From: an uncultured Pseudomonadota bacterium
Lineage (GTDB): Bacteria > Pseudomonadota > Gammaproteobacteria > Burkholderiales > SG8-39
Reading direction: 5' to 3'
DNA length: 64,000 nucleotides
NCBI GenBank assembly: GCA_903834835.1
Contig: CAILKO010000008.1
Location: 82,684 to 146,683 of the forward strand
Shown: positions 34,521 to 46,732 of the stretch, one piece after another
Layout of the letters: each line of letters opens with the position of its first letter
Position numbering within the stretch: the stretch's first letter is position 1
Program-made: the position numbers and the translations under genes
Notes under the pieces: model-generated
Databases searched by the model: none
What the model saw: the letters and a program-made list of their open reading frames with translations, nothing else
What the model was told of the DNA's origin: nothing

Positions 34521-35417
34521 TCAGTAGCTTCTGCCCGACAGCACACGGGATTTTCCGAGCAGGCCCATGTCGTAGTCCACCTGGACGACGAACTGGCTTT
34601 TCACCGCCCGCCCTTCCAGCGATCCGGGGCTGAAGCGCGCCAGCCTGAAGGCTGCGACGGCGGACAGTTCGAACGCGCCCTGCGGCTTTGCGTCGATGAC
34701 ATTGACCGCATCGACCGTCCCGAACTCGTTGACGAGCACCTGCAGCTTTACGTAACCCATGATGCCCGGCGGCAATCCCGGATCGGGCGGCACGATATCC
34801 GAGAGCGGCAGGGCTCGCACGTCGAGTTCGGCCGGCAGGTAATAGCGCGGCGGCTGCAGCGCGTCGAGCGCCGCTAGGGCCACGCCATAGGCGGCGACAT
34901 TCTGGGTGCCAGCATCCCGGGTGATCGAACTCTGGCCGGCGAAGGCGCTGGTCGCTGTTGCTTCCGGTGCCGAGGGCTCGGTCGGGCCTGCTTTCAGAGC
35001 GGGGCGCACAGCGGCTTCGCTCTCGGGGAAGCGTTCCTTGGGCGTGTCGAGGTTTCTTGCACCCGGGGCCAGGCGTTCCATCGGCGCATCGGCGAGCCGC
35101 GTCACGAGCGGGCGCGCGAGGTCGATCTGCGGCGCTGCGCCGGGCATCGCCCTGAAACCGAAGACGAGCAGCGCGTGCACGAGCACGGAGAGGATCATGG
35201 CGCGGGCAAGCACCTGCTGCCCACGCGCTGCCGGGCGCTGTGCCGCAGGCGGCAGGAGGGTGCTGGACTCGGGTCCCGATGTGCCCCTCGCAGGCGCCTC
35301 GTCTGACTGCGCGCAGATGAGCGGCGCGTGCGAGGGCTCGGCGTACAGCGTGCGCCGCGCGAGGCCCCCGGGCAGGAAGCGATGCGCTGACATCCCGCCC
35401 AGTGCGAAATCGCTCAT
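34521..35417 (-). CDS. TonB C-terminal-domain-like membrane protein
   Basis: Part of ORF 34521..35648(-), trimmed to ATG 35417 so that it does not overlap pilY1. ATG 35393 is an alternative start. It has one TM segment (VLARAMILSVLVHALLVFGF), a Pro/Ala-rich linker and a C-terminal GYVKLQVLVNEFGTVDAVNVIDAKPQGAFELSAVAAFRLARFSPGSLEGRAVKSQFVVQVDY, which fits the TonB_C pattern. Confidence 0.6.
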   Translation of the reverse strand: MSDFALGGMSAHRFLPGGLARRTLYAEPSHAPLICAQSDEAPARGTSGPESSTLLPPAAQRPAARGQQVLARAMILSVLVHALLVFGFRAMPGAAPQIDLARPLVTRLADAPMERLAPGARNLDTPKERFPESEAAVRPALKAGPTEPSAPEATATSAFAGQSSITRDAGTQNVAAYGVALAALDALQPPRYYLPAELDVRALPLSDIVPPDPGLPPGIMGYVKLQVLVNEFGTVDAVNVIDAKPQGAFELSAVAAFRLARFSPGSLEGRAVKSQFVVQVDYDMGLLGKSRVLSGRSY

Positions 35418-35445
35418 GGTCTGAAAGGCCCGGTCGCGCGCACGC

Positions 35446-38400
35446 TTACTGCGTGATCTCGCGCCAGCTGATGCGCTTGCCGGAGGGCGGCGGAATGTCG
35501 AAGGGCGCGCCGATCGTGGTCTGTTTCGCGTCCGAGGTGGTAGTGATGACCACCGTCTTCCCGGAAGGCAGGCGCACGATGTTGAGACCCACCGCGAGCG
35601 AGTTCGAGAGGAACTGCGCAACCTTGCCGCCGGCGCTGTTCGCGACATGCTCGCCGGTGCCGTAGTTGAAGAAGTTCAGCCAGCTCGTGCCACCGATCGA
35701 ACAGGCATCGGTCGCGGGGATGTTGCTTGCCACGACGAGCGTACCGAGCTGCAGCTTCATATCCACGTTCACCCGCTCGCCGGTGAGCGGCAGATCGACA
35801 TACCAGCCCGCGGTGCTGTTGCACTGCGCGCTCGTGCCGGTGCAGCTGATGGTGCGCGTGGCCGAGCTGCCGGAGCCGACCTGGGCCATCGTCAGCGGCT
35901 TCAGCGAGGCGCGCAGATCCACGTACGGCGTGGTGCTGATCGGATCGACGATGCCGTAGATGCTCTGGGCAGTGTTGATGCTGAGGTCGGTCGAACCGAG
36001 CATCGACCCGGTGGCGACGAACACCATCGGGCTGCCGCCGGATTCTGCGAGTTCCGGCCGGGTCGTGATCGGCTGGTAGTTGAGACCGTTGCAGGTGCCG
36101 GTGCAGAGCTCCGCCACCTTGGTGGCCTCGCGGCCGCTCGGCGCAATCGTGTCGTTGATGTCGAAGCGCCACACATTGCCGAGCAGGTCGCCGCCATAGA
36201 CGCGGACGGTGCTGTTGTCGGCAAGCGTGTTCTCGACCCAGTTGTTGATGTGGTTCAGGCCGCTTGGCGTGGTTGCCGAGCCCGCCGTGGTGGCGATCTT
36301 GAAGTAGATCTTGCCGGTTGCGGCATCGAGCACGTAGAGATAGCCGAGTCCGTCGCCGGCCTTGGCGGGCGAATTCACGTTGTTGTAGCCCGAAGTGACG
36401 AGCACCACCCACTGCTCGGTGTCCAGCGCATCGATCACGCCATCCGAGTTGGTGTCCTTCACCCGCGCCTTGCTTAGTATCGGGTTGCTGAAGGTGTAGC
36501 CGATATGGCAGTCGGCGCCGCCCGTCGATGCGCGCGAAGCGGGGTTCGAGTCGTCATAGCAGGTGTCGCTCCACTTGAACTCCCACATCGCCTTGGGCGC
36601 TGCGGGCGTGGTGACATCGAGCGCGTAGTAGCCCTTGCCGCCGCCGTTCAGGCCGGCCACGAGCAGCGTTTTCCATTCACCGGCCGTGCTGTCGTAGAAA
36701 TCGCCCACCGACGGCGTGCCGTCGACCGAATACTGGTGGTTATTCGAGTAGTTCGTGTCGGCAAGCTTGTACAGGTTGGGCAATACCATGCTCGGGATGA
36801 AGGTCCAGGCTTCCTCGCCGCCCGTCGTATCGCTCGTGCTGGTGCCGGCGTAGAAGGCATGCAGCATGCCGTCGTTGGCTGCCACGAACACCATCGGCGT
36901 GCGCGTGGATTTCGCGGTCTTGTAGGCCGAGTAGCCCGAATCGGTGTAGCTCGCGAATGGCGCCTTCACGTACACCGGCTGCGCGTTCACGATGTCGCCG
37001 AGCACGTTCTCGCGCGTGCGGTAGAGCTTCGACTGGTCGTTCGCGACGAAGTTCTCGTAGCCGCGCTGGCCGCGCACATAGTTCACCATGTTCGCGCCGG
37101 CTGCAAGACCGCGCTGGTCCGCCGTCACGGGCGAGCCGGTGCCGTCGGTCATGCTGCCGTACTGGCTGAAGAGCGCCACCTTGCTGGAATTGAAATTTGC
37201 CTGCTCGGTCGCGTTCAGGTCGGTGACGGCCGTGCCCGTGGGGTTGCCCGAGACATCGCAGGTCTGCGTATTCCAGGTGAGGTTCGTGAGGTTATCCGTG
37301 GCGCCCGAGCGGAACAGGTAGATCGCCCGGTTGTCGCAGTAATTGCGCGTCCGCGCATCGAGCTTCGACTGGGCGGACCAGATGATCGCCGTCTTCACTT
37401 CGCCGGTCGAGAGGTCGATTTCATGCGCCTCGAGTTCGCCCGTCCACTTGGTGGTGACGTACTTCGCGGTATAGGCGAAGTTGTCCCCGGCCACCGGCTC
37501 CAGGTTCGACGTCGCCGCCGCTGCCGCCGAGGCGACCCGGGCGCTGATGCCGGCGAGCGCGTTCAGCAGGCCCGAGACCACCGAATCCGGATCCGCCGCG
37601 CTGAAGAACTGGCCGCGGCCGTTCACCGCGGCATGCCAGAGGTCGTCAAGCGCGGTGGGGTCGTCGTTCACAGGCACCGGCCAGAGCTTCGCGACCTCGC
37701 GCACATCCTGGAAGTCGCCCACGTTCGCGGTCTTGTAGTCCGAGCGATAGGTCAGCGTGCCGCTGAGGCCCAGACCCATCGTGAAGGTGGTCATGTGCTG
37801 CCAGTTGGCCGTGTCGGCCTCGGTGCCGGTGCCGCTCGTCGGCACGTTGTCAGTCATCGTGGGGCGCAGATCGGTGTTGTAGTAATAGGCCGCCACGTCG
37901 GCGAGCGAACCGCTGCTGCCGCCTGAGGGCGCGCTGGTGACGACCGTGCAGGGCCAGGCCGAGCACCCGGAGGGCGGGAAGGGCGGGGTCGAGGGGCCCG
38001 GCACGCCTGCTGCAGGCGGGGCCGGGATGCTGCGCGTCTGGTAGCAGATGCCGGTCACGTCCACCGGCGAACCCACCGTCGTGGTGGTGATCGGCGAGCC
38101 GACCGGCGCGCCGCCTGAGAGCAGCGTCGTGGCCACGGTGGTGGTGCTCGTATATTGGATTTTCCGTCCGGCGTTCGCGGTGCCGTTCTGGCATGTGACG
38201 GTGCGACCGCTGCCCGAGGACGCGGTGCAGGAATCGACTTCCACAAAGCCTGTGTCCGCCGTCTGGCAGGTGACCGTCGGCCCGCTGCCGGGGTTGGAGG
38301 CCGAGCAGGACGAGACGTCGACCCAGTTGGTATCCGATGCGACGGCGCAGGTGGTTGCGGTAAAGCTGTTGCCCGCGCCTGCCACGATGGGCGTACAGGT

Positions 38401-41400
38401 GCCGATGTTGGTCGGGCCGGTGGCGACCGTGTTGCAGGTGGTGGTGACCCAGGCATTGCCTGCGGCCGCTATCGCGGGCGAGCAGCTTGCGACCGGCACA
38501 TTGGTGGTCGTGGCGTTCGAACAGGTGGTGGCCGTCCAGGTGGGCGCAGTTGCGCTCACCGGCGAACAGGAGGAAACGCCGGTCGCGGCCTGGGTGTTCG
38601 GCCCGGCGGCGCAGCTTGTGGTGGTCCAGTTGGGCGCGGTTGCGGTCACCGGCGAGCAGGAGGACACCGCCGTGGCGGCCTGGGTGTTCGGCCCGGGCGC
38701 GCAGGTCGTGGTTGTCCAGGTGGGCGCAATCGCGGTCACCGGCGAGCAGGAGGACACCGCCGTGGCGGCCTGGGTGTTCGGCCCGGGCGTGCAGGTCGTG
38801 GTTGTCCAGGTGGGCGCAATCGCGGTCACCGGCGAGCAGGAGGACACCGCCGTGGCAGCGAGTGTGTTCGGGCCCGGCGTGCAGGTGACGGCGGTCCAGT
38901 TGGGCGCAGTCGCGGTCACCGGCGAGCAGGTCTGCACGGCCGTGGCGGCCTGGGTGTTCGGGCCGGGGGTGCAGGTAATCGTGGTCCAGTTGGGAGCAGT
39001 GCCTGTCTGGGCTGCGCAGGTGCCCGGTTGTACGGCCGCGGTGGCGAAGGTGTTCGGGCCGGGAGTGCAGGTAATCGTGGTCCAGTTGGGCGCGGTCTCC
39101 GTCTGGGCCGCGCAGGTACCGGCCTGCACCGCAGCCGAGGCGAAGGTGTTCGGCCCGGGCGCACAGGTGGTGGCCGTCCAGCTATTGCCTAGGCTCGCGG
39201 GCTGGCTCGATGGACAGGTGGTCGACTGTACAGCTGCCGTGGCAAAGGTATTCGGCCCGGCGGTGCAGGTTGTTACCGTTCGCGTGTTGCCGGAAATCAG
39301 CGTGCCGGCCGCACAGGTGGCAGGGTCCGCAGGGGCGGGCGTAACGGTGATGGTCCCCGCCACCACACCGGTATTGCTCGTCGTGATCGGCGCGGTGATC
39401 GAGGCGGTAGTTGTCGTGAGCGAGGCCGAGGTGATCGTCGTGCCGGATCCGAGCGGCGCCATGATCTTGATGTAGGTATCGGAGTTCGACAAACAGCTCG
39501 GGAAAGGCGTTGCAGCCGCGCTACAGGTGCCGCTGGCGGCGATTGTGTAGCTGTTCGTCAGTCCTGCAGCGACGATCGCGTTCTTCATGTTGAGTTTGCG
39601 CGAGACCCCGCCGCCGCCGCCGCTCGGCGTGGCGGTGATCGATGCGATGTTGAGACGGTCGACGCCGTTGATGAGAATGGCGGTCAGCACTGCGCCGCTC
39701 GAGACGTTGGTGAATACGATAGTGGCCGTGCCGTTGATCGTGGAGGTCGTGCCCTTGAGCGTCTGGGTCGCGGTCTTCATGGTCTGCGTCGCAGTCTTCA
39801 TGGTCTGCGTCGCGGTTTTCAGCGTCTGGGTACGCGTGTCCATGGTCTGCGTGTTGGTCTGCATGGTCTGCGTGCGGGTCTGCAGCGTCTGGACCTTGGT
39901 TTCCAAGGTCTGGGTGCGCGTCTCCAGCGTCTGCGCCGTGCTCTGGCGGATCTGGGCGGTGCTCTGCGTGTTCTGTATCGTGCGCCGCTGGACCTGCTGG
40001 GTGCGCTGCTGGCGCGCGGTGCAGGTGACGTTCGGGTTGTAGACGTTCGACTTGGTGGTGACGACCGAGGTGCCGTCGGAAGCGCCGTCCCACATCGGGG
40101 GCGGGGTCGCGGAATAACTGCCGTCCGCATTGCCGATCGCGCTCCCGGTGAGGTCGACCCCTGCATTGCCGTTCCAGTAGCCGTCGGTCGTCAGGATCAC
40201 GAAGTTCTGCTGGCAGGAGTACTGCATCGGGTCGTCCGCCATGCCGGAATTGATACCGTCCGTCTTGCCGGCGAAGTGACGACCGACGCGCGCGAGCGCC
40301 TCGCGGTTCGGCGTGCTGTTCGCGACCGTCTGGCTCGTGAGCTTGGAGAACCAGCTGGTCCTGTGCGCGGAATTGAAATCGTCGATCTTCAGGTACTTCG
40401 AAGAACTTACCGGGTTGCCCGGCGAGATCGTGACGAGGCCGACGCGGTAGCTGTCGGTGAGCTGGATGAAGGCGCGCGTGGCCGCGCTCTTCATCATCAT
40501 GATGCGCGTGCGGTAGTAGCTGTACCAGTTGGCGAAGTTCTGGCGCTCGTCGCTGCCGGCAATGCCCGACGTGGAATTCACGAGGACCTTGGTCCAGGTG
40601 CCCGGGTTGTTCAGGTCCACCATCGTCGTCGTAGCCTGCGGAACGCTGTTCACGAAGGCGCGTTCCACGGAGTAGATCGAGGTGGTGGTCGAGCCGCCGG
40701 CCGCTGTGCGGTAGATGCGGTAGCCGGTCGCCGGTACCGAACCGCCGTTGTCGGTGATGACGATCTGCACGCCCTCGCCGGCGGCAATCGCGACGGCGCT
40801 CGAGAGCGCGCTCGGCGCGGATTCGCCGATGTTGTTGAAGGCGGTGATCTGGTACTTGTAGTTGCCGGCGAGTCCCGCGGTATAGAGCGAGCCCGCGCTG
40901 GCGCCGACGTTGGTCAGCGTGAAGAACGGTGCGGGCGGTGCGAGCGTATCGGTGGCCGAACCGGGCGCGCTCTGCCCCGAGGCGGTGAACGGGCTTGCGC
41001 CGATGGTCTGGGTGCAGGGCGCGCCATGCCAGACGAGCTTCTGGCCGCCCGAGTAGGTGTAGTAGTAGGCGGCCTGCGCAGTGTCGTTGCTGCTGCCGGA
41101 GAGCGTGCTGGAATCGTAGGCGCGGAAACTTGCGGAAAGGTCTACCGTGGTGGCGGTGTTGACATAGCCGTCGTAGTAGGCGCCGGTAAAGCTCGGGGTC
41201 GGATAGTTCGTGCCGTCCGCCTTCTTCGGCAGCGTGTAGGTGCTGTTCGGGTTGTAGTACATCGAGTTGCAAATATTGTTCTTGTACCCGACCCTGGAGA
41301 TATGCCGCTCCTCGTCATCCGGCATGTGGCTCCAGGCCATCGAACCCGAGGTATCCATCAGATACATGATGTTCGGCTTCACCTGGGCCGAGGTCGAACT

Positions 41401-41544
41401 CGCGAGCGGGACGCTGGAAAGATCGGTCAGCGCGGCCTGGCTCAGCTGCGACCAGAGCAGCAGCCAGCAGAGCGCCACATGGGTGCTGGTCTTCCAGAAA
41501 CTGGCGGGCTTGCGTAATTCGGCGGTGTGCGTCGCGTTGTTCAT
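35446..41544 (-). CDS. pilY1: Type IV pilus tip-associated adhesin PilY1 family protein, unusually large (2,032 aa)
   Basis: It has a signal-like N-terminus and a vWA/MIDAS-like LMDTSGSMAW. The C-terminal PilY1-type region carries an EF-hand-like loop DTNSDGVID (36430-36456). It is positioned immediately after pilX in a minor-pilin operon. Confidence 0.85.
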   Translation of the reverse strand: MNNATHTAELRKPASFWKTSTHVALCWLLLWSQLSQAALTDLSSVPLASSTSAQVKPNIMYLMDTSGSMAWSHMPDDEERHISRVGYKNNICNSMYYNPNSTYTLPKKADGTNYPTPSFTGAYYDGYVNTATTVDLSASFRAYDSSTLSGSSNDTAQAAYYYTYSGGQKLVWHGAPCTQTIGASPFTASGQSAPGSATDTLAPPAPFFTLTNVGASAGSLYTAGLAGNYKYQITAFNNIGESAPSALSSAVAIAAGEGVQIVITDNGGSVPATGYRIYRTAAGGSTTTSIYSVERAFVNSVPQATTTMVDLNNPGTWTKVLVNSTSGIAGSDERQNFANWYSYYRTRIMMMKSAATRAFIQLTDSYRVGLVTISPGNPVSSSKYLKIDDFNSAHRTSWFSKLTSQTVANSTPNREALARVGRHFAGKTDGINSGMADDPMQYSCQQNFVILTTDGYWNGNAGVDLTGSAIGNADGSYSATPPPMWDGASDGTSVVTTKSNVYNPNVTCTARQQRTQQVQRRTIQNTQSTAQIRQSTAQTLETRTQTLETKVQTLQTRTQTMQTNTQTMDTRTQTLKTATQTMKTATQTMKTATQTLKGTTSTINGTATIVFTNVSSGAVLTAILINGVDRLNIASITATPSGGGGGVSRKLNMKNAIVAAGLTNSYTIAASGTCSAAATPFPSCLSNSDTYIKIMAPLGSGTTITSASLTTTTASITAPITTSNTGVVAGTITVTPAPADPATCAAGTLISGNTRTVTTCTAGPNTFATAAVQSTTCPSSQPASLGNSWTATTCAPGPNTFASAAVQAGTCAAQTETAPNWTTITCTPGPNTFATAAVQPGTCAAQTGTAPNWTTITCTPGPNTQAATAVQTCSPVTATAPNWTAVTCTPGPNTLAATAVSSCSPVTAIAPTWTTTTCTPGPNTQAATAVSSCSPVTAIAPTWTTTTCAPGPNTQAATAVSSCSPVTATAPNWTTTSCAAGPNTQAATGVSSCSPVSATAPTWTATTCSNATTTNVPVASCSPAIAAAGNAWVTTTCNTVATGPTNIGTCTPIVAGAGNSFTATTCAVASDTNWVDVSSCSASNPGSGPTVTCQTADTGFVEVDSCTASSGSGRTVTCQNGTANAGRKIQYTSTTTVATTLLSGGAPVGSPITTTTVGSPVDVTGICYQTRSIPAPPAAGVPGPSTPPFPPSGCSAWPCTVVTSAPSGGSSGSLADVAAYYYNTDLRPTMTDNVPTSGTGTEADTANWQHMTTFTMGLGLSGTLTYRSDYKTANVGDFQDVREVAKLWPVPVNDDPTALDDLWHAAVNGRGQFFSAADPDSVVSGLLNALAGISARVASAAAAATSNLEPVAGDNFAYTAKYVTTKWTGELEAHEIDLSTGEVKTAIIWSAQSKLDARTRNYCDNRAIYLFRSGATDNLTNLTWNTQTCDVSGNPTGTAVTDLNATEQANFNSSKVALFSQYGSMTDGTGSPVTADQRGLAAGANMVNYVRGQRGYENFVANDQSKLYRTRENVLGDIVNAQPVYVKAPFASYTDSGYSAYKTAKSTRTPMVFVAANDGMLHAFYAGTSTSDTTGGEEAWTFIPSMVLPNLYKLADTNYSNNHQYSVDGTPSVGDFYDSTAGEWKTLLVAGLNGGGKGYYALDVTTPAAPKAMWEFKWSDTCYDDSNPASRASTGGADCHIGYTFSNPILSKARVKDTNSDGVIDALDTEQWVVLVTSGYNNVNSPAKAGDGLGYLYVLDAATGKIYFKIATTAGSATTPSGLNHINNWVENTLADNSTVRVYGGDLLGNVWRFDINDTIAPSGREATKVAELCTGTCNGLNYQPITTRPELAESGGSPMVFVATGSMLGSTDLSINTAQSIYGIVDPISTTPYVDLRASLKPLTMAQVGSGSSATRTISCTGTSAQCNSTAGWYVDLPLTGERVNVDMKLQLGTLVVASNIPATDACSIGGTSWLNFFNYGTGEHVANSAGGKVAQFLSNSLAVGLNIVRLPSGKTVVITTTSDAKQTTIGAPFDIPPPSGKRISWREITQ
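38190..39290 (-). repeat. Cysteine-ladder tandem repeat (87-90-nt period) inside pilY1
   Basis: There are eight clear units of T-C-(T/A)-(P/A)-G-P-N-T-x-A-x-x-A-V-x(1-3)-C-x8-10-W-T-x-x-T, followed by degenerate Cys-spaced units. Copies 38651-38740 and 38741-38830 differ at 1 of 90 nt. Confidence 0.85.
39754..39984 (-). repeat. Eleven tandem 21-nt (heptad) repeats inside pilY1
   Basis: In protein order the units are RTIQNTQ, STAQIRQ, STAQTLE, TRTQTLE, TKVQTLQ, TRTQTMQ, TNTQTMD, TRTQTLK, TATQTMK, TATQTMK, TATQTLK. Gln at position 4 is invariant. Confidence 0.85.
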
Positions 41545-45091: not shown

Positions 45092-45700
45092 TCAGCGCGG
45101 CGCGTACGGGCCCTTGGGTGCCGCCGGGCTCGCTTCAGGGGTCACTGGCCGCGCAACGGGCGCTTTCTCGGCGCGCTCGGCTTCGGTGGCATAGTCGTCC
45201 GGTATCGCCGGTGCCGGCTGGCTGCGTGCGGGGAGCAGTCCTTCGCGCGGGTAGCCGGCGCTGTCGAGCAGCGTGTCGTATTCGGACTGGGCAAAGCCCT
45301 TGTAGACCGTCTGCCCGACGGTGAGGACCGGAACTTCATTGCTGCCGGAGATCTGCTTCAGTTTCTCGTTCGACTCCTGATCCCAGACCTGGACCTCCTT
45401 GAACGGAATGCCGCGCCGATTCAACGCGTCGCGCGCGAGCTTGCAGGGTGCATCGCAGCCCGGCGAGCTGTAGAGCGTGACCGGGAAATTGCGCGTCACC
45501 TGCTCGATGACGAACGGGGTCGCCGGGGTCGCCGGGGCGGTCTGTGTGCCGAGGGCCTCGCGCTTCTGTATGTTGCGCGCGCCGGCGGGCGGGGGCGTAT
45601 CGGTGAGATGCACCCGCCCGCGTTCGTCGGTCCAGCGATAGAGCTGAGCACTTGCGGCGCAAGTCCATCCGAGTAAGACGATGATCAGGTAGCGGCGCAT
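45092..45700 (-). CDS. Secreted DUF4124 + glutaredoxin-like domain protein
   Basis: 202 aa. It has a signal peptide (MRRYLIIVLLGWTCAASA) and a DUF4124-like LYRWTDERGRVHLTDTPPP. The glutaredoxin-like part is VTLYSSPGCDAPCKLARDALNRRGIPFKEVQV...VPVLTVGQTVYKGF. The Cys pair spacing is C-x3-C rather than C-x2-C. Confidence 0.65.
   Translation of the reverse strand: MRRYLIIVLLGWTCAASAQLYRWTDERGRVHLTDTPPPAGARNIQKREALGTQTAPATPATPFVIEQVTRNFPVTLYSSPGCDAPCKLARDALNRRGIPFKEVQVWDQESNEKLKQISGSNEVPVLTVGQTVYKGFAQSEYDTLLDSAGYPREGLLPARSQPAPAIPDDYATEAERAEKAPVARPVTPEASPAAPKGPYAPR
45507..45517 (-). promoter_or_regulatory. AlgR-type box CCGTTCGTC(AT), distal copy
   Basis: The identical 11-mer CCGTTCGTCAT occurs on the minus strand about 640 nt upstream of the pilE ATG, inside the glutaredoxin-like coding region (codons ..PFVIE..). 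Confidence 0.3.
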
Positions 45701-45919
45701 CGCAGGTCCTGCATGATTGCTTCAGCATTTGATGATAGCACCTGCCTGCTTGCGGGAGCCTGCGGGCGAGGCGAGGCAGAACGAAGGCGGTGTGCGGTAT
45801 TTCTCCATCGGGCGCAATTCGGGGAATTGCGCCCGGCCCGTCTTGTAAACTCGCCGACTTCCGAGGCAGGTACATGTTTGTCGCAGCCGGTTTGCCGGCG
45901 CACCACTGCGGAGATCGCG

Positions 45920-46732
45920 ATGCACAGTCGTCTGACGTTCGTCCTGCTGGCCATGCTGTTCCATGCGCTCGTCCCTGCGGCCGCACACGCGCAGAGCGCG
46001 GCTCCTGCCGCGGGCATCGAGGCCCTGCGCATCGAGGTGCAGCGCCTGAGAGCCGATATCGAGGTGATGAAAAAGCACATCGGCACCATCGCGCAGTTCC
46101 TGCAGCAGCGCGAAGGCATCGCCCAGATTGCCTCGCCTGATCGCGCTGCGCCCGTTCCGGGCGGCGGGTCCGCGCCGCTGAATCTGGAGGGCGCGCCGGT
46201 GCTCGGCCGTGCCGACGCGCCGGTCACGATGATCGAATTCTCGGATTTCGAATGTCCCTTCTGTCAGCGCTATTCCGCGTCCGTGTTCCCGGAGATCAAG
46301 CGCGAATACATCGACACCGGCAAGCTGCGCTATGTGTTCATGGATTTTCCGCTGGAGCAGATTCATCCCAACTCGCGTCGGGCAGCCGAGGCGGCTTACT
46401 GCGCCGGCCAGCAGTCCGCGTTCTGGCCGATGCATGACCGGCTGTTCGCCAACCAGAACGAACTCGGTGCAGCGCAGCTCCTCGGGCATGCGCGGCAACT
46501 GGGATTGAATGCCGAGGCGTTCGAGCGCTGCATCGCCTCAGGCCAGCATGCGGCATGGATCAACCGCGGCCTGTCTGCTGGCGCGAGCGTGGGGGTCACC
46601 GCCACGCCGACATTTCTGCTGGCCCGTACGGGCTCGAAGGACGGCCTGAACGGGGCGACGCGCGTGATCGGCGCGCAGCCCGTGGAGAATTTCCGCAAGG
46701 CGATCGAGGAACTCCTCGCCGCCAGGCCCTGA
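45920..46732 (+). CDS. Periplasmic DsbA-family thiol:disulfide oxidoreductase (thioredoxin fold, CPFC)
   Basis: Part of ORF 45713..46732. Start is at ATG 45920 (MHSRLTFVLLAMLFHALVPAAAHA, a signal peptide). A coiled-coil-like linker is followed by APVTMIEFSDFECPFCQRY, the active-site motif. Confidence 0.8.
   Translation: MHSRLTFVLLAMLFHALVPAAAHAQSAAPAAGIEALRIEVQRLRADIEVMKKHIGTIAQFLQQREGIAQIASPDRAAPVPGGGSAPLNLEGAPVLGRADAPVTMIEFSDFECPFCQRYSASVFPEIKREYIDTGKLRYVFMDFPLEQIHPNSRRAAEAAYCAGQQSAFWPMHDRLFANQNELGAAQLLGHARQLGLNAEAFERCIASGQHAAWINRGLSAGASVGVTATPTFLLARTGSKDGLNGATRVIGAQPVENFRKAIEELLAARP

What the first reader, a model, noticed from the sequence alone, without database searches (positions are those of the whole stretch)
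38190..39290. Cysteine-ladder tandem repeat (two Cys per ~30 aa) inside PilY1, with one nearly identical adjacent copy pair
From ..TCTAGPNTFATAAVQSTTC.. to ..GRTVTCQNG.. cysteines recur about every 14-16 residues. Eight clear units of T-C-(T/A)-(P/A)-G-P-N-T-x-A-x-x-A-V-x-C-x(8-10)-W-T-x-x-T are followed by degenerate Cys-spaced units. The DNA period is 87-90 nt. Units 38651-38740 and 38741-38830 differ at 1 of 90 nt while other units have diverged. That pattern points to recent unit duplication or gene conversion, and so to likely copy-number variation. I do not recognise this repeat family. The regular Cys spacing suggests a chain of small disulfide-closed modules.
Basis: seen in the sequence. 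Interest (0 to 1): 0.6.

Follow-up and report, generated by a model that had tools for sequence, protein, structure and literature searches.

The report
Disulfide-ladder stalk inserted in PilY1
The cysteine repeat is real and belongs to an undescribed module found only in the pilus-tip protein PilY1 of some Betaproteobacteria: a cysteine-stapled beta ladder whose unit number matches, one to one, a helical seven-residue repeat just upstream, which suggests the two fold back on each other into a rigid stalk of adjustable length.

Summary
The minus-strand gene 35446-41544 encodes a 2032-aa PilY1. Residues 744-1118 hold 26 cysteines spaced 12-17 residues apart. The adjacent-copy tract with one mismatch exists.

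The repeat matches no Pfam, NCBIfam or PDB sequence family. Foldseek finds no significant structural neighbour. In 1.84 billion representative proteins it occurs in 58 clusters. The full-length ones I scanned are PilY1 and the rest look like PilY1 fragments. It is found in about 2% of genomes of the order.

The eight "clear" units are a lineage-specific variant.

New findings:
- Heptad array, a ~140-aa domain and the ladder together form one ~628-aa insertion at a single site in the vWA head, so its two ends must meet.
- The number of heptads tracks the number of two-Cys units about 1:1, from about 13 to 50.
- Cysteine totals are even in 108 of 111 proteins and cluster in steps of 16.
- Both arrays share a period-4 super-repeat.
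- The closest orthologue has 17 units instead of 8 and 16 heptads instead of 10.

Best reading is a helix-up, disulfide-stapled-ladder-down stalk. Physical pairing and the disulfides are inferred, not shown.

The parts
35446..41544 (-). pilY1 gene, 2032 aa. Last pilus gene of a pilE-fimT-pilV-pilW-pilX-pilY1 minor-pilin operon.
   Evidence: ORF. PF05567 at E=1.7e-37. PDB 3HX6 at E=7e-37. Neighbouring genes carry PilW, GspH, ComP_DUS and N_methyl domains. The same gene order recurs in related loci.
38191..39315 (-). Cys ladder, aa 744-1118. It has 26 Cys: 13 'B' segments (C..G/P-N/T-x-W/F-T-x-T-T-C) alternating with 12 'A' segments (C-T-P-G-P-N-T...C). It begins and ends with B.
   Evidence: All Cys columns are invariant in alignments A1 and A2.
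38524..39267 (-). The eight 'clear' GPNT units, aa 760-1007. Three are F-type units of 32-34 aa and five are Q-type units of 30 aa. This is a lineage-specific variant of the family unit.
38191..38523 (-). Four terminal units, aa 1008-1118. Two are of the family's canonical 13/16-spaced form. Two are of a CQTADTG..C type also seen in short versions of the module in another family of the order.
38642..38856 (-). Near-identical direct repeat: 125 nt at an offset of 90 nt, with one mismatch. A recent duplication or gene-conversion tract.
39733..40014 (-). Gln-centred heptad array, aa 511-604, about 10 clean to 13 counted heptads of T-x-T-Q-T-L/M-x. Proposed outgoing arm of the stalk.
   Evidence: There are weak coiled-coil family matches.
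39316..39732 (-). Domain of about 140 aa between the two arrays, aa 605-743. It would sit at the distal tip of the proposed stalk. It matches no family and is seen here and in the closest orthologue P0002.
38119..40002 (-). The whole insertion, aa ~515-1142. It corresponds to about 15 residues in the PilY1 of a same-family relative.
   Evidence: BLASTP of the window protein against L040 aligns q296-514 with s372-590 and q1143-2032 with s606-1494. One search shows the flanking motifs.
40660..40992 (-). Second insertion of about 110 aa, aa 185-295. It looks FN3-like by eye and is absent from the relative's PilY1.
   Evidence: Gap in the BLASTP alignment. Sequence.
35944..37002 (-). PilY1 C-terminal beta-propeller domain, aa 1515-1867.
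34521..35648 (-). TonB_C-domain protein gene directly downstream. It is conserved after the ladder-type pilY1 in 12 related loci.

Best explanation
The Cys ladder (aa 744-1118) is the returning arm of a ~628-aa hairpin-shaped insertion in the vWA head of the type IV pilus tip protein PilY1.

Proposed path of the chain:
- It leaves the head as a polar alpha-helix of Gln-centred heptads (aa ~511-604).
- It forms a ~140-aa domain at the far end (aa 605-743).
- It comes back as a narrow stacked beta ladder. Each ~15-residue half-unit contributes one rung and ends in a cysteine.
- Consecutive cysteines, the two ends of each 'B' loop, form disulfides that staple neighbouring rungs.

One heptad of helix is about 1.0 nm. 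One two-Cys unit would be two rungs, about 0.96 nm. The arms therefore stay level only if repeat numbers match, which would explain why the two arrays expand and contract together. On these assumed rises the stalk would be roughly 12-13 nm here and up to about 50 nm in relatives. It would be thin, nearly uncharged, Thr/Ala-rich and oxidation-hardened, and it would hold a tip domain away from the pilus tip.

Shown: the insertion site, the 1:1 counts, the even Cys totals, the size steps, the shared period-4 super-repeat, and the copy-number difference between orthologues.

Inferred: the helical state of the heptads, the rung geometry, the disulfide pairing, side-by-side packing of the arms, and the function of the stalk.
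For: 1. Single-site insertion. Against a same-family PilY1 of 1494 aa, the alignment stops at aa 514 and resumes at aa 1143, across about 15 subject residues. In other ordinary PilY1 proteins of relatives, the flanking TDGYW and LADVA motifs lie about 45-140 aa apart. Here they are 762 aa apart. The two ends of the insert must therefore meet.

2. Heptads against two-Cys units:
- window: 13 against 12-13
- P0002: 19 against 21-22
- other family members: 25 against 25-27, 31-33 against 33-35, 38-41 against 41-42, and 49 against 50
- regression slope 0.97, r=0.76, n=116
- in 20 phylogenetically independent pairs, 17 change in the same direction, 2 show no spacer change and 1 is opposite; p=7e-5

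3. Cys totals are even in 108 of 111 proteins and cluster at 52/54, 68/70, 84 and 100. The window array starts and ends with a B loop.

4. Both arrays show identity peaks at lags 4 and 8 in the same proteins. In an Accumulibacter protein, the irregular pattern of Leu-type heptads coincides with the reversed pattern of Ser-type units at 8 of 9 positions with no shift. In P0002, the self-similarity matrices of the two arrays correlate at r=0.85 when one is reversed and -0.04 when not.

5. Between the window and P0002, growth is confined to the last heptads (3 to 9) and the first ladder units (3 to 13). Those are the two ends that would meet at the tip.

6. AlphaFold2 on seven units with 97 aligned slices gives pLDDT 73.9 and pTM 0.66. 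It shows one 6-residue strand per half-unit, each ending at a Cys. The weak top Foldseek matches are nearly all beta-helices.

7. All Cys columns are invariant at 48-51% mean column identity. In 2081 canonical units Asn23 is 98% and the aromatic at position 25 is 96% conserved.

8. The N-terminus looks like a signal peptide by eye. PilY1 is an exported pilus-tip protein (own knowledge).
Against: - No structure of the two arms together was computed. Rung geometry and Cys-Cys distances are therefore not verified.
- Confidence in the ladder model is only moderate, and no Foldseek match is significant.
- Thr-rich heptads have low intrinsic helix propensity. Their helical state rests only on weak coiled-coil family matches.
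- The general mirror test across 88 proteins favours the reversed orientation only modestly: mean r 0.306 against 0.271, p=0.02, not corrected for relatedness.
- A standard independent-contrasts test gave r of about 0. I attribute this to near-zero branch lengths dominating the contrasts, which I did not verify.
- The ratio is not exact in P0002 (about 19 against 21-22).
- Short versions in another family gave 4-9 heptads for 8-13.5 units with my crude heptad counter.
- Two pairs of proteins with identical C-termini differ in ladder length but not in heptads. These are either assembly collapses or tolerated mismatches.
- The window is a short-read metagenome-assembled genome. Its unit count could be collapsed.
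Confidence: 0.55

Rival explanations
1. Beads on a string. Each ~30-aa unit is an independent small disulfide-closed module. The array is a flexible spacer whose copy number drifts freely, with no physical relation to the heptad array.
For: Even Cys totals and B-loop termini fit closed loops. A near-identical adjacent pair and the 8-against-17 unit difference from the orthologue show turnover. No known solenoid matches the model significantly.
Against: Free drift does not explain three observations: the 1:1 tracking with heptads over a roughly four-fold range, the clustering in steps of 16 Cys, and the shared period-4 super-repeat. The insertion's ends must meet, which a one-way flexible spacer does not provide. 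The model shows a regular strand in every half-unit.
Confidence: 0.2
2. Surface-variation cassette. The repeat is kept mainly as a recombination-prone tract that changes the length or antigenic face of the exposed pilus tip, to escape phages or grazers that recognise PilY1.
For: There is a 125-nt near-identical tract, block duplications in the orthologue, a copy-number difference between orthologues with 91-93% identical flanks, and a patchy distribution.
Against: Unit number is highly conserved in deep clades, with 53 proteins at 52/54 Cys and 33 at 68/70. Cys, Asn and the aromatic residue are near-invariant. No variation within a population could be shown. This reading is compatible with a structural stalk rather than an alternative to it.
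Confidence: 0.1
3. Functional surface rather than a spacer. The regularly spaced thiols or the flat Thr-rich faces bind something, such as a metal, a mineral, ice or a polysaccharide, as in Thr-ladder beta-helical antifreeze proteins.
For: The ladder is 24% Thr with T-x-T-like strands next to each Cys and only 8 charged residues in 375. The source is a lake-water metagenome. The resemblance to insect antifreeze beta-helices with Cys ladders rests on my own knowledge and was not tested.
Against: The same module occurs in Accumulibacter, a wastewater organism by my own knowledge, and in a Variovorax isolate. No structural match to antifreeze or any other binding fold was found. Even Cys totals point to disulfides rather than free thiols.
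Confidence: 0.07
4. The array is real, but its length in this window is an assembly artefact. Near-identical units were collapsed by a short-read assembler, and the true gene has more units.
For: The genome is a 74-contig, 88.9%-complete metagenome-assembled genome. Public short-read contigs at depth of about 6 break inside the repeat. Its 26 Cys are among the lowest counts in the family. Two other pairs with identical C-termini differ in ladder length only.
Against: The unit count (12-13) matches the heptad count (about 13) of the same gene. The near-identical tract is only 125 nt, short enough for typical 150-nt reads to bridge; the read length of these runs is not known to me. The frame is intact and the flanking unit types are ordered as in the orthologue.
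Confidence: 0.12

Closest known systems
PilY1/PilC type IV pilus tip adhesins (P. aeruginosa PilY1, PDB 3HX6; Neisseria PilC; Myxococcus PilY1.1-1.3)
   Same: It has the C-terminal beta-propeller (PF05567, 3HX6 match). It has an N-terminal vWA-like head with a DxSxS motif (DTSGS, aa 64-68). It holds the last pilus-gene position in a minor-pilin operon. Cysteine-rich, elongated PilY1 variants with many predicted disulfides are described for myxobacteria (PMC13190605).
   Different: That paper does not use the words 'repeat' or 'tandem'. It reports 7-30 Cys in the well-studied PilY1 proteins and clade medians of up to 41. This family carries 26-100 ladder Cys in a strictly periodic array, paired with a heptad array, as one insertion inside the head.
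Mechanosensitive vWA domain of P. aeruginosa PilY1, where a cysteine is needed for surface sensing (Webster et al. 2022, as cited in PMC13190605)
   Same: In both cases cysteines in the PilY1 head are thought to form disulfides that matter under the pulling force of a retracting pilus.
   Different: In P. aeruginosa it is a few cysteines inside the vWA fold. Here it is a separate repetitive stalk of 13 to 50 two-Cys units. No force or signalling data exist for it.
Disulfide-braced beta-helical antifreeze proteins of insects (Tenebrio 12-residue coils, spruce budworm 15-residue coils); from my own knowledge
   Same: Both have short coils of about 12-15 residues, one Cys per coil region, Thr-rich flat strands next to the Cys, and very few charges.
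   Different: No sequence or significant structural match was found. Here two coil types alternate (13/16 spacing) with a conserved Asn and aromatic residue. The array is up to 1400 aa long and coupled to a helix. An ice-binding role is unlikely given the hosts.
Left-handed and right-handed parallel beta-helices (LpxD, GlmU, gamma-carbonic anhydrase, pectate lyase)
   Same: These are most of the weak top structural neighbours of the seven-unit model. That fits stacked parallel rungs.
   Different: E-values are 2.9-9.8 and TM-scores 0.1-0.25, which is not significant. There is no hexapeptide motif, and those folds have no cysteine ladder.
   Same: Same host protein, same insertion region, and the same idea of two arrays whose copy numbers change together.
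   Different: The repeat is different, with about 7 residues per Cys there against about 15 here. A sequence look-up with this family's canonical unit found no look-alike among earlier windows. It is an unchecked AI note, not independent evidence.

Membership tests
PilY1/PilC (Pfam PF05567, T4P_PilY1) | C-terminal PilY1 beta-propeller domain above the curated cut-off | tested here: met
   129.8 bits against a cut-off of 28.1, aa 1515-1867. 3HX6 matches at E=7.3e-37.
PilY1/PilC (Pfam PF05567, T4P_PilY1) | Encoded with the minor pilins FimU/T, PilV, PilW, PilX and PilE | tested here: met
   PilW, GspH, ComP_DUS and N_methyl domains are found in the upstream genes. The order is conserved in more than 12 related loci.
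PilY1/PilC (Pfam PF05567, T4P_PilY1) | N-terminal vWA-like head with a MIDAS DxSxS motif | tested here: inconclusive
   DTSGS at aa 64-68, TTDGYW at 452-457 and LADVAAYYY at 1214 are seen in the sequence and shared with relatives. No Pfam VWA model reaches E<=1.
Any curated repeat or domain family (Pfam-A, NCBIfam) | Profile match of the ladder region | tested here: not met
   There is no family at E<=1 over aa 744-1118. Nothing meaningful appears at E<=10 for three ladder segments.
Any solved structure (PDB) | Sequence-profile or fold match of the ladder | tested here: not met
   The profile of 97 seven-unit slices gives 0 hits at E<=10. The best Foldseek E-values are 2.3 and 2.9.
Parallel beta-helix / beta-solenoid | Stacked coils with in-register parallel strands | tested here: inconclusive
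   The model has one 6-residue strand plus a bridge per 15-residue half-unit. The weak top matches are mostly beta-helices but are not significant. I could not inspect coordinates.
Alpha-helical coiled coil (for the partner heptad array) | Heptad periodicity with hydrophobic a/d positions | tested here: inconclusive
   A period of 7 is clear, with Gln invariant by my anchoring and only one hydrophobic position per heptad. Only weak coiled-coil family matches exist. No structure was computed.
Disulfide-closed mini-modules (cystine loops) | Cysteines oxidised in defined pairs | not testable with these tools
   Indirect support only: even totals in 108 of 111 proteins, arrays that begin and end with a B loop, and an exported protein.

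The most novel reading that the evidence does not exclude
This would be a previously undescribed protein architecture: a two-arm molecular ruler. A polar heptad helix and a cystine-stapled two-rung beta unit would pair one to one in antiparallel. The two separate DNA repeat arrays would then have to expand together, here seemingly in quanta tied to a shared period-4 super-repeat. The pilus would gain a tip stalk of about 12-50 nm with tunable length.
Probability: 0.4. Interest if true: 0.8.

Novelty: new variant of a known kind. Interest (0 to 1): 0.66.

Why it matters
PilY1 is the part of the type IV pilus that touches the world. It mediates adhesion and, in Pseudomonas, surface sensing under force.

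A rigid, disulfide-hardened stalk of set length on that protein would change how far the adhesive head reaches and how it bears load. It would also pose a problem of assembly and export, because the longest versions may exceed the width of the periplasm.

For protein science, two separate repeat arrays kept in 1:1 register would be a natural case of coupled repeat evolution. It would give a simple, testable rule linking sequence counts to rod length.

The module has no Pfam model, so these genes are currently annotated only as 'PilC/PilY family'. A cultured carrier exists (Variovorax sp. VNK109, locus L006), which makes experiments possible.

Tried and rejected
- **Pfam, NCBIfam and PDB searches of the ladder** found nothing.
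- **Foldseek** against PDB (two models) and against viral predicted structures found nothing significant.
- **First AlphaFold2 run** (aa 740-1200, 21 sequences) was of low confidence (pLDDT 60.5). A second run with 97 in-register slices improved it to 73.9.
- **Within-population copy-number test** with public runs failed. Only short-read contigs at depth of about 6 exist, they break in the repeat, and they show no joints.
- **Redox neighbours.** I considered that the neighbouring DsbA-like and glutaredoxin-like genes are dedicated partners. They are absent from the 10-kb flanks of 21 related loci, so I rejected them as a conserved part of the system.
- **Repeat outside PilY1.** The Pfam-negative hits I inspected are fragments or frameshifted contigs of the same kind of gene.
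- **Standard independent contrasts** gave r of about 0. I replaced them with independent pairs.
- **232-aa periodicity.** A plain sequence autocorrelation did not show one that would explain the 8-unit steps. The unit-level lag analysis found period 4 instead.
- **Close relatives.** None of 60 related genomes carries the repeat.
- **Literature searches** for PilY1 with cysteine-rich repeats, Accumulibacter, or solenoid/stalk terms found no description of the module.

Full report
**What is there**

The finding lies on the minus strand inside one long ORF, 35446-41544, which encodes 2032 aa.
- Its C-terminus matches the PilY1 beta-propeller family PF05567 at aa 1515-1867, with E=1.7e-37 and 129.8 bits against a cut-off of 28.1.
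- It also matches the solved P. aeruginosa PilY1 domain 3HX6 at E=7e-37.
- Upstream on the same strand lie genes with PilW, GspH/FimT, ComP-like pilin and N-methylation motifs. A TonB_C protein gene follows downstream.

**Check of the observation**

- 26 cysteines lie between aa 744 and 1118 (nt 38191-39315) at spacings of 12-17 residues. The other 1657 residues hold 19.
- Eight units with C-[TA]-[PA]-G-P-N-T, 30-34 aa long, are followed by four shorter units.
- Tandem Repeats Finder reports period 90, 5.3 copies and score 634.
The tract is 125 nt with one mismatch. Other 30-aa unit pairs differ at 8-21 of 90 nt.

**Is it a known family?**

No.
- Pfam and NCBIfam give nothing over the ladder.
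- A profile of 97 seven-unit slices finds no PDB sequence at E<=10.
- Foldseek with two models finds nothing significant in the PDB or in viral predicted structures.
- Literature searches found cysteine-rich long PilY1 variants in myxobacteria, but that paper does not use the words 'repeat' or 'tandem'. Nothing describes this module.

**Where else does it occur?**

- A word-indexed search found 158 proteins. All 120 listed carry PF05567 and are 1166-3005 aa long. Named sources include Accumulibacter and Caldimonas.
- An exhaustive HMMER pass over 1.84 billion representatives found only 58 clusters. The Pfam-negative hits I inspected are fragments or frameshifted contigs of the same gene.
- Named genomes include Rhizobacter, Caldimonas, Rhodocyclaceae, Ca. 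Accumulibacter aalborgensis, many lake Burkholderiales genomes and one isolate, Variovorax sp. VNK109.
- None of 60 close relatives has it.
- In an even sample of the order, 9 of 401 genomes and 6 of 168 genera have it.

The module is rare, patchy and, as far as sampled, exclusive to PilY1.

**The canonical unit**

Across 2081 units the consensus is C-x-T-x-T-T-G-P-T-P-V-A-S-C-T-P-x-x-A-x-A-G-N-x-[YWF]-T-x-T-T. It is 29 aa long with Cys spacing 13/16. Asn is 98% and the aromatic residue 96% conserved.

The window's units at aa 1008 and 1037 have exactly this form. The eight 'clear' units have shifted spacing (15/15 or 17/15-17) and occur only here and in the closest relative.

The window array is 13 'B' segments alternating with 12 'A' segments, and it begins and ends with B.

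**Copy number**

The nearest relative is P0002, from another metagenome, with flanks 91-93% identical. It has 17 GPNT units against 8 here, and 16 clean heptads against 10. Its array also contains a three-unit block duplication. Turnover between orthologues is therefore real.

Within-population variation could not be tested. The public runs are short-read contigs at depth of about 6 that break in the repeat.

**The array is one part of a larger insertion**

Against the 1494-aa PilY1 of a same-family relative, the window protein aligns over aa 296-514 and again over 1143-2032. About 15 residues in the relative stand in for 628 here. In the relative, the sequence around the site runs straight from '...TTVSRQYSFGGFFC' to 'KKRIYYTDTTT...'.

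The insertion holds, in order:
- a Gln-centred heptad array (aa ~511-604)
- a ~140-aa segment with no family match
- the ladder

Because it enters and leaves the head at one point, its two ends must lie together.

**The two arrays are coupled**

Counting heptads by Gln periodicity and units by Cys pairs gives:

| Protein or class | Heptads | Two-Cys units |
|---|---|---|
| Window | 13 | 12-13 |
| P0002 | 19 | 21-22 |
| Main class 1 | 25 | 25-27 |
| Main class 2 | 31-33 | 33-35 |
| Larger class | 38-41 | 41-42 |
| Largest (L018) | 49 | 50 |

- The regression slope is 0.97 heptads per unit (r=0.76, n=116).
- Among 20 phylogenetically independent pairs that differ by at least 4 units, the spacer changes in the same direction in 17, not at all in 2 and oppositely in 1 (p=7e-5). 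The 2 unchanged pairs have identical C-termini.
- Ladder Cys totals are even in 108 of 111 proteins and cluster at 52/54, 68/70, 84 and 100. These are steps of 8 units.
- In several proteins both arrays show identity peaks at lags 4 and 8.
- In an Accumulibacter protein, the irregular positions of Leu-type heptads coincide with the reversed positions of Ser-type units at 8 of 9 sites.
- In P0002, the self-similarity matrices of the two arrays correlate at 0.85 when one is reversed and -0.04 when not.
- Between the window and P0002, growth is confined to the last heptads and the first ladder units. These are the two ends next to the middle domain.

**Structure**

AlphaFold2 on seven units with 97 in-register slices gave pLDDT 73.9 and pTM 0.66. 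Each ~15-residue half-unit has one 6-residue strand that ends at a Cys, plus an isolated bridge. The weak top Foldseek matches are mostly beta-helices but are not significant. I could not inspect coordinates.

**Interpretation**

The simplest model that fits all this is a hairpin stalk:
- The helix goes up, a small domain sits at the top, and a stacked beta ladder comes down.
- Each half-unit is one rung of about 0.48 nm.
- The two cysteines of each B loop staple adjacent rungs.
- One unit of about 0.96 nm faces one heptad of about 1.0 nm.

This explains the single insertion site, the 1:1 rule, the even Cys counts, the arrays ending in B loops and the shared super-repeat. The stalk would be about 12-13 nm here and up to about 50 nm in the largest relatives. 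These lengths rest on the assumed rises.

The reason for steps of 8 units is not explained. It may reflect a twist period that must be completed for the ends to meet.

**What is inferred and what weakens it**

Inferred, not shown:
- the helical state of the Thr-rich heptads
- the rung geometry
- the disulfide pairing
- the packing of the two arms
- any function of the stalk

Weaknesses:
- Model confidence is moderate.
- There is no joint model of both arms.
- The family-wide mirror signal is modest.
- The contrasts test failed.
- Ratios are inexact in P0002 and in the short versions.
- Repeats may be collapsed in short-read assemblies, including this window.

**Context checks**

- The TonB_C gene after pilY1 recurs in 12 related loci and may belong to the system.
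- The DsbA-like and glutaredoxin-like genes next to the operon do not recur, so I do not count them as part of it.
- An earlier AI note of this scan describes a different two-array, Cys-dense insert in the vWA head of another PilY1 and reached a similar fold-back idea. I saw it after forming mine, and it is not independent evidence.

**Verdict**

The repeat is real. It is a lineage-specific variant of an undescribed PilY1 insertion module. It is most likely the disulfide-stapled arm of a length-matched stalk. It is best filed as a new variant of a known kind of protein, with a structural principle that is worth testing.

Noticed in passing
window 39733-40014 (-), aa 511-604: A Gln-centred heptad array (T-x-T-Q-T-L/M-x) lies upstream of the ladder. 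Its copy number tracks the ladder's about 1:1 across the family. It differs from the orthologue P0002 (10 against 16 clean heptads).
   Followed up: yes
family-wide (proteins P0003-P0120, loci L002-L022): Ladder cysteine totals cluster at 52/54, 68/70, 84 and 100, which are steps of 8 units. Both arrays show a period-4 super-repeat. Why the step is 8 is unexplained.
   Followed up: partly
window 39316-39732 (-), aa 605-743: A beta-rich segment of about 140 aa lies between the heptads and the ladder and matches no family. It is seen here and in the closest orthologue. Accumulibacter-type proteins join the arrays with about 15 residues.
   Followed up: partly
window 40660-40992 (-), aa 185-295: A second insertion of about 110 aa in the vWA head looks FN3-like by eye (YKYQITAFNNIGES...GYRIYRT). 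It is absent from the same-family relative's PilY1.
   Followed up: partly
window 34521-35648 (-): A TonB_C-domain protein gene lies directly after pilY1. A homologue follows the ladder-type pilY1 in 12 related loci, so it may be a conserved extra member of this operon type.
   Followed up: partly
window 45092-46732: Glutaredoxin/DUF4124 and DsbA-like genes lie next to the operon. They would suit a Cys-rich exported protein but are not found within 10 kb of the gene in 21 related loci.
   Followed up: yes
loci L013 and L015: Two full minor-pilin gene sets (pilE-fimT-pilV-pilW-pilX) lie about 11-12 kb apart on the same contig, one of them upstream of the ladder-type pilY1.
   Followed up: no
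proteins P0018/P0062 and P0110/P0093 (also P0018/P0005): These proteins have identical C-terminal domains and identical heptad spacers but different ladder lengths (36/24 and 28/54 Cys; P0018 against P0005 is 36/52). They are either short-read collapse of the repeat or real mismatched variants that would argue against strict coupling.
   Followed up: no
loci L045-L049 (another family of the order): Short versions of the module have 8-13.5 units and a different unit type (W-x-x-x-S-S-C-T...C-Q). Here the ladder runs almost directly into the LADVA motif. These would be good minimal systems for structure work.
   Followed up: partly
window aa 903-1008: The Asn that is 98% conserved in canonical units is replaced by Thr in three of the window's B loops (APTW instead of APNW).
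   Followed up: no
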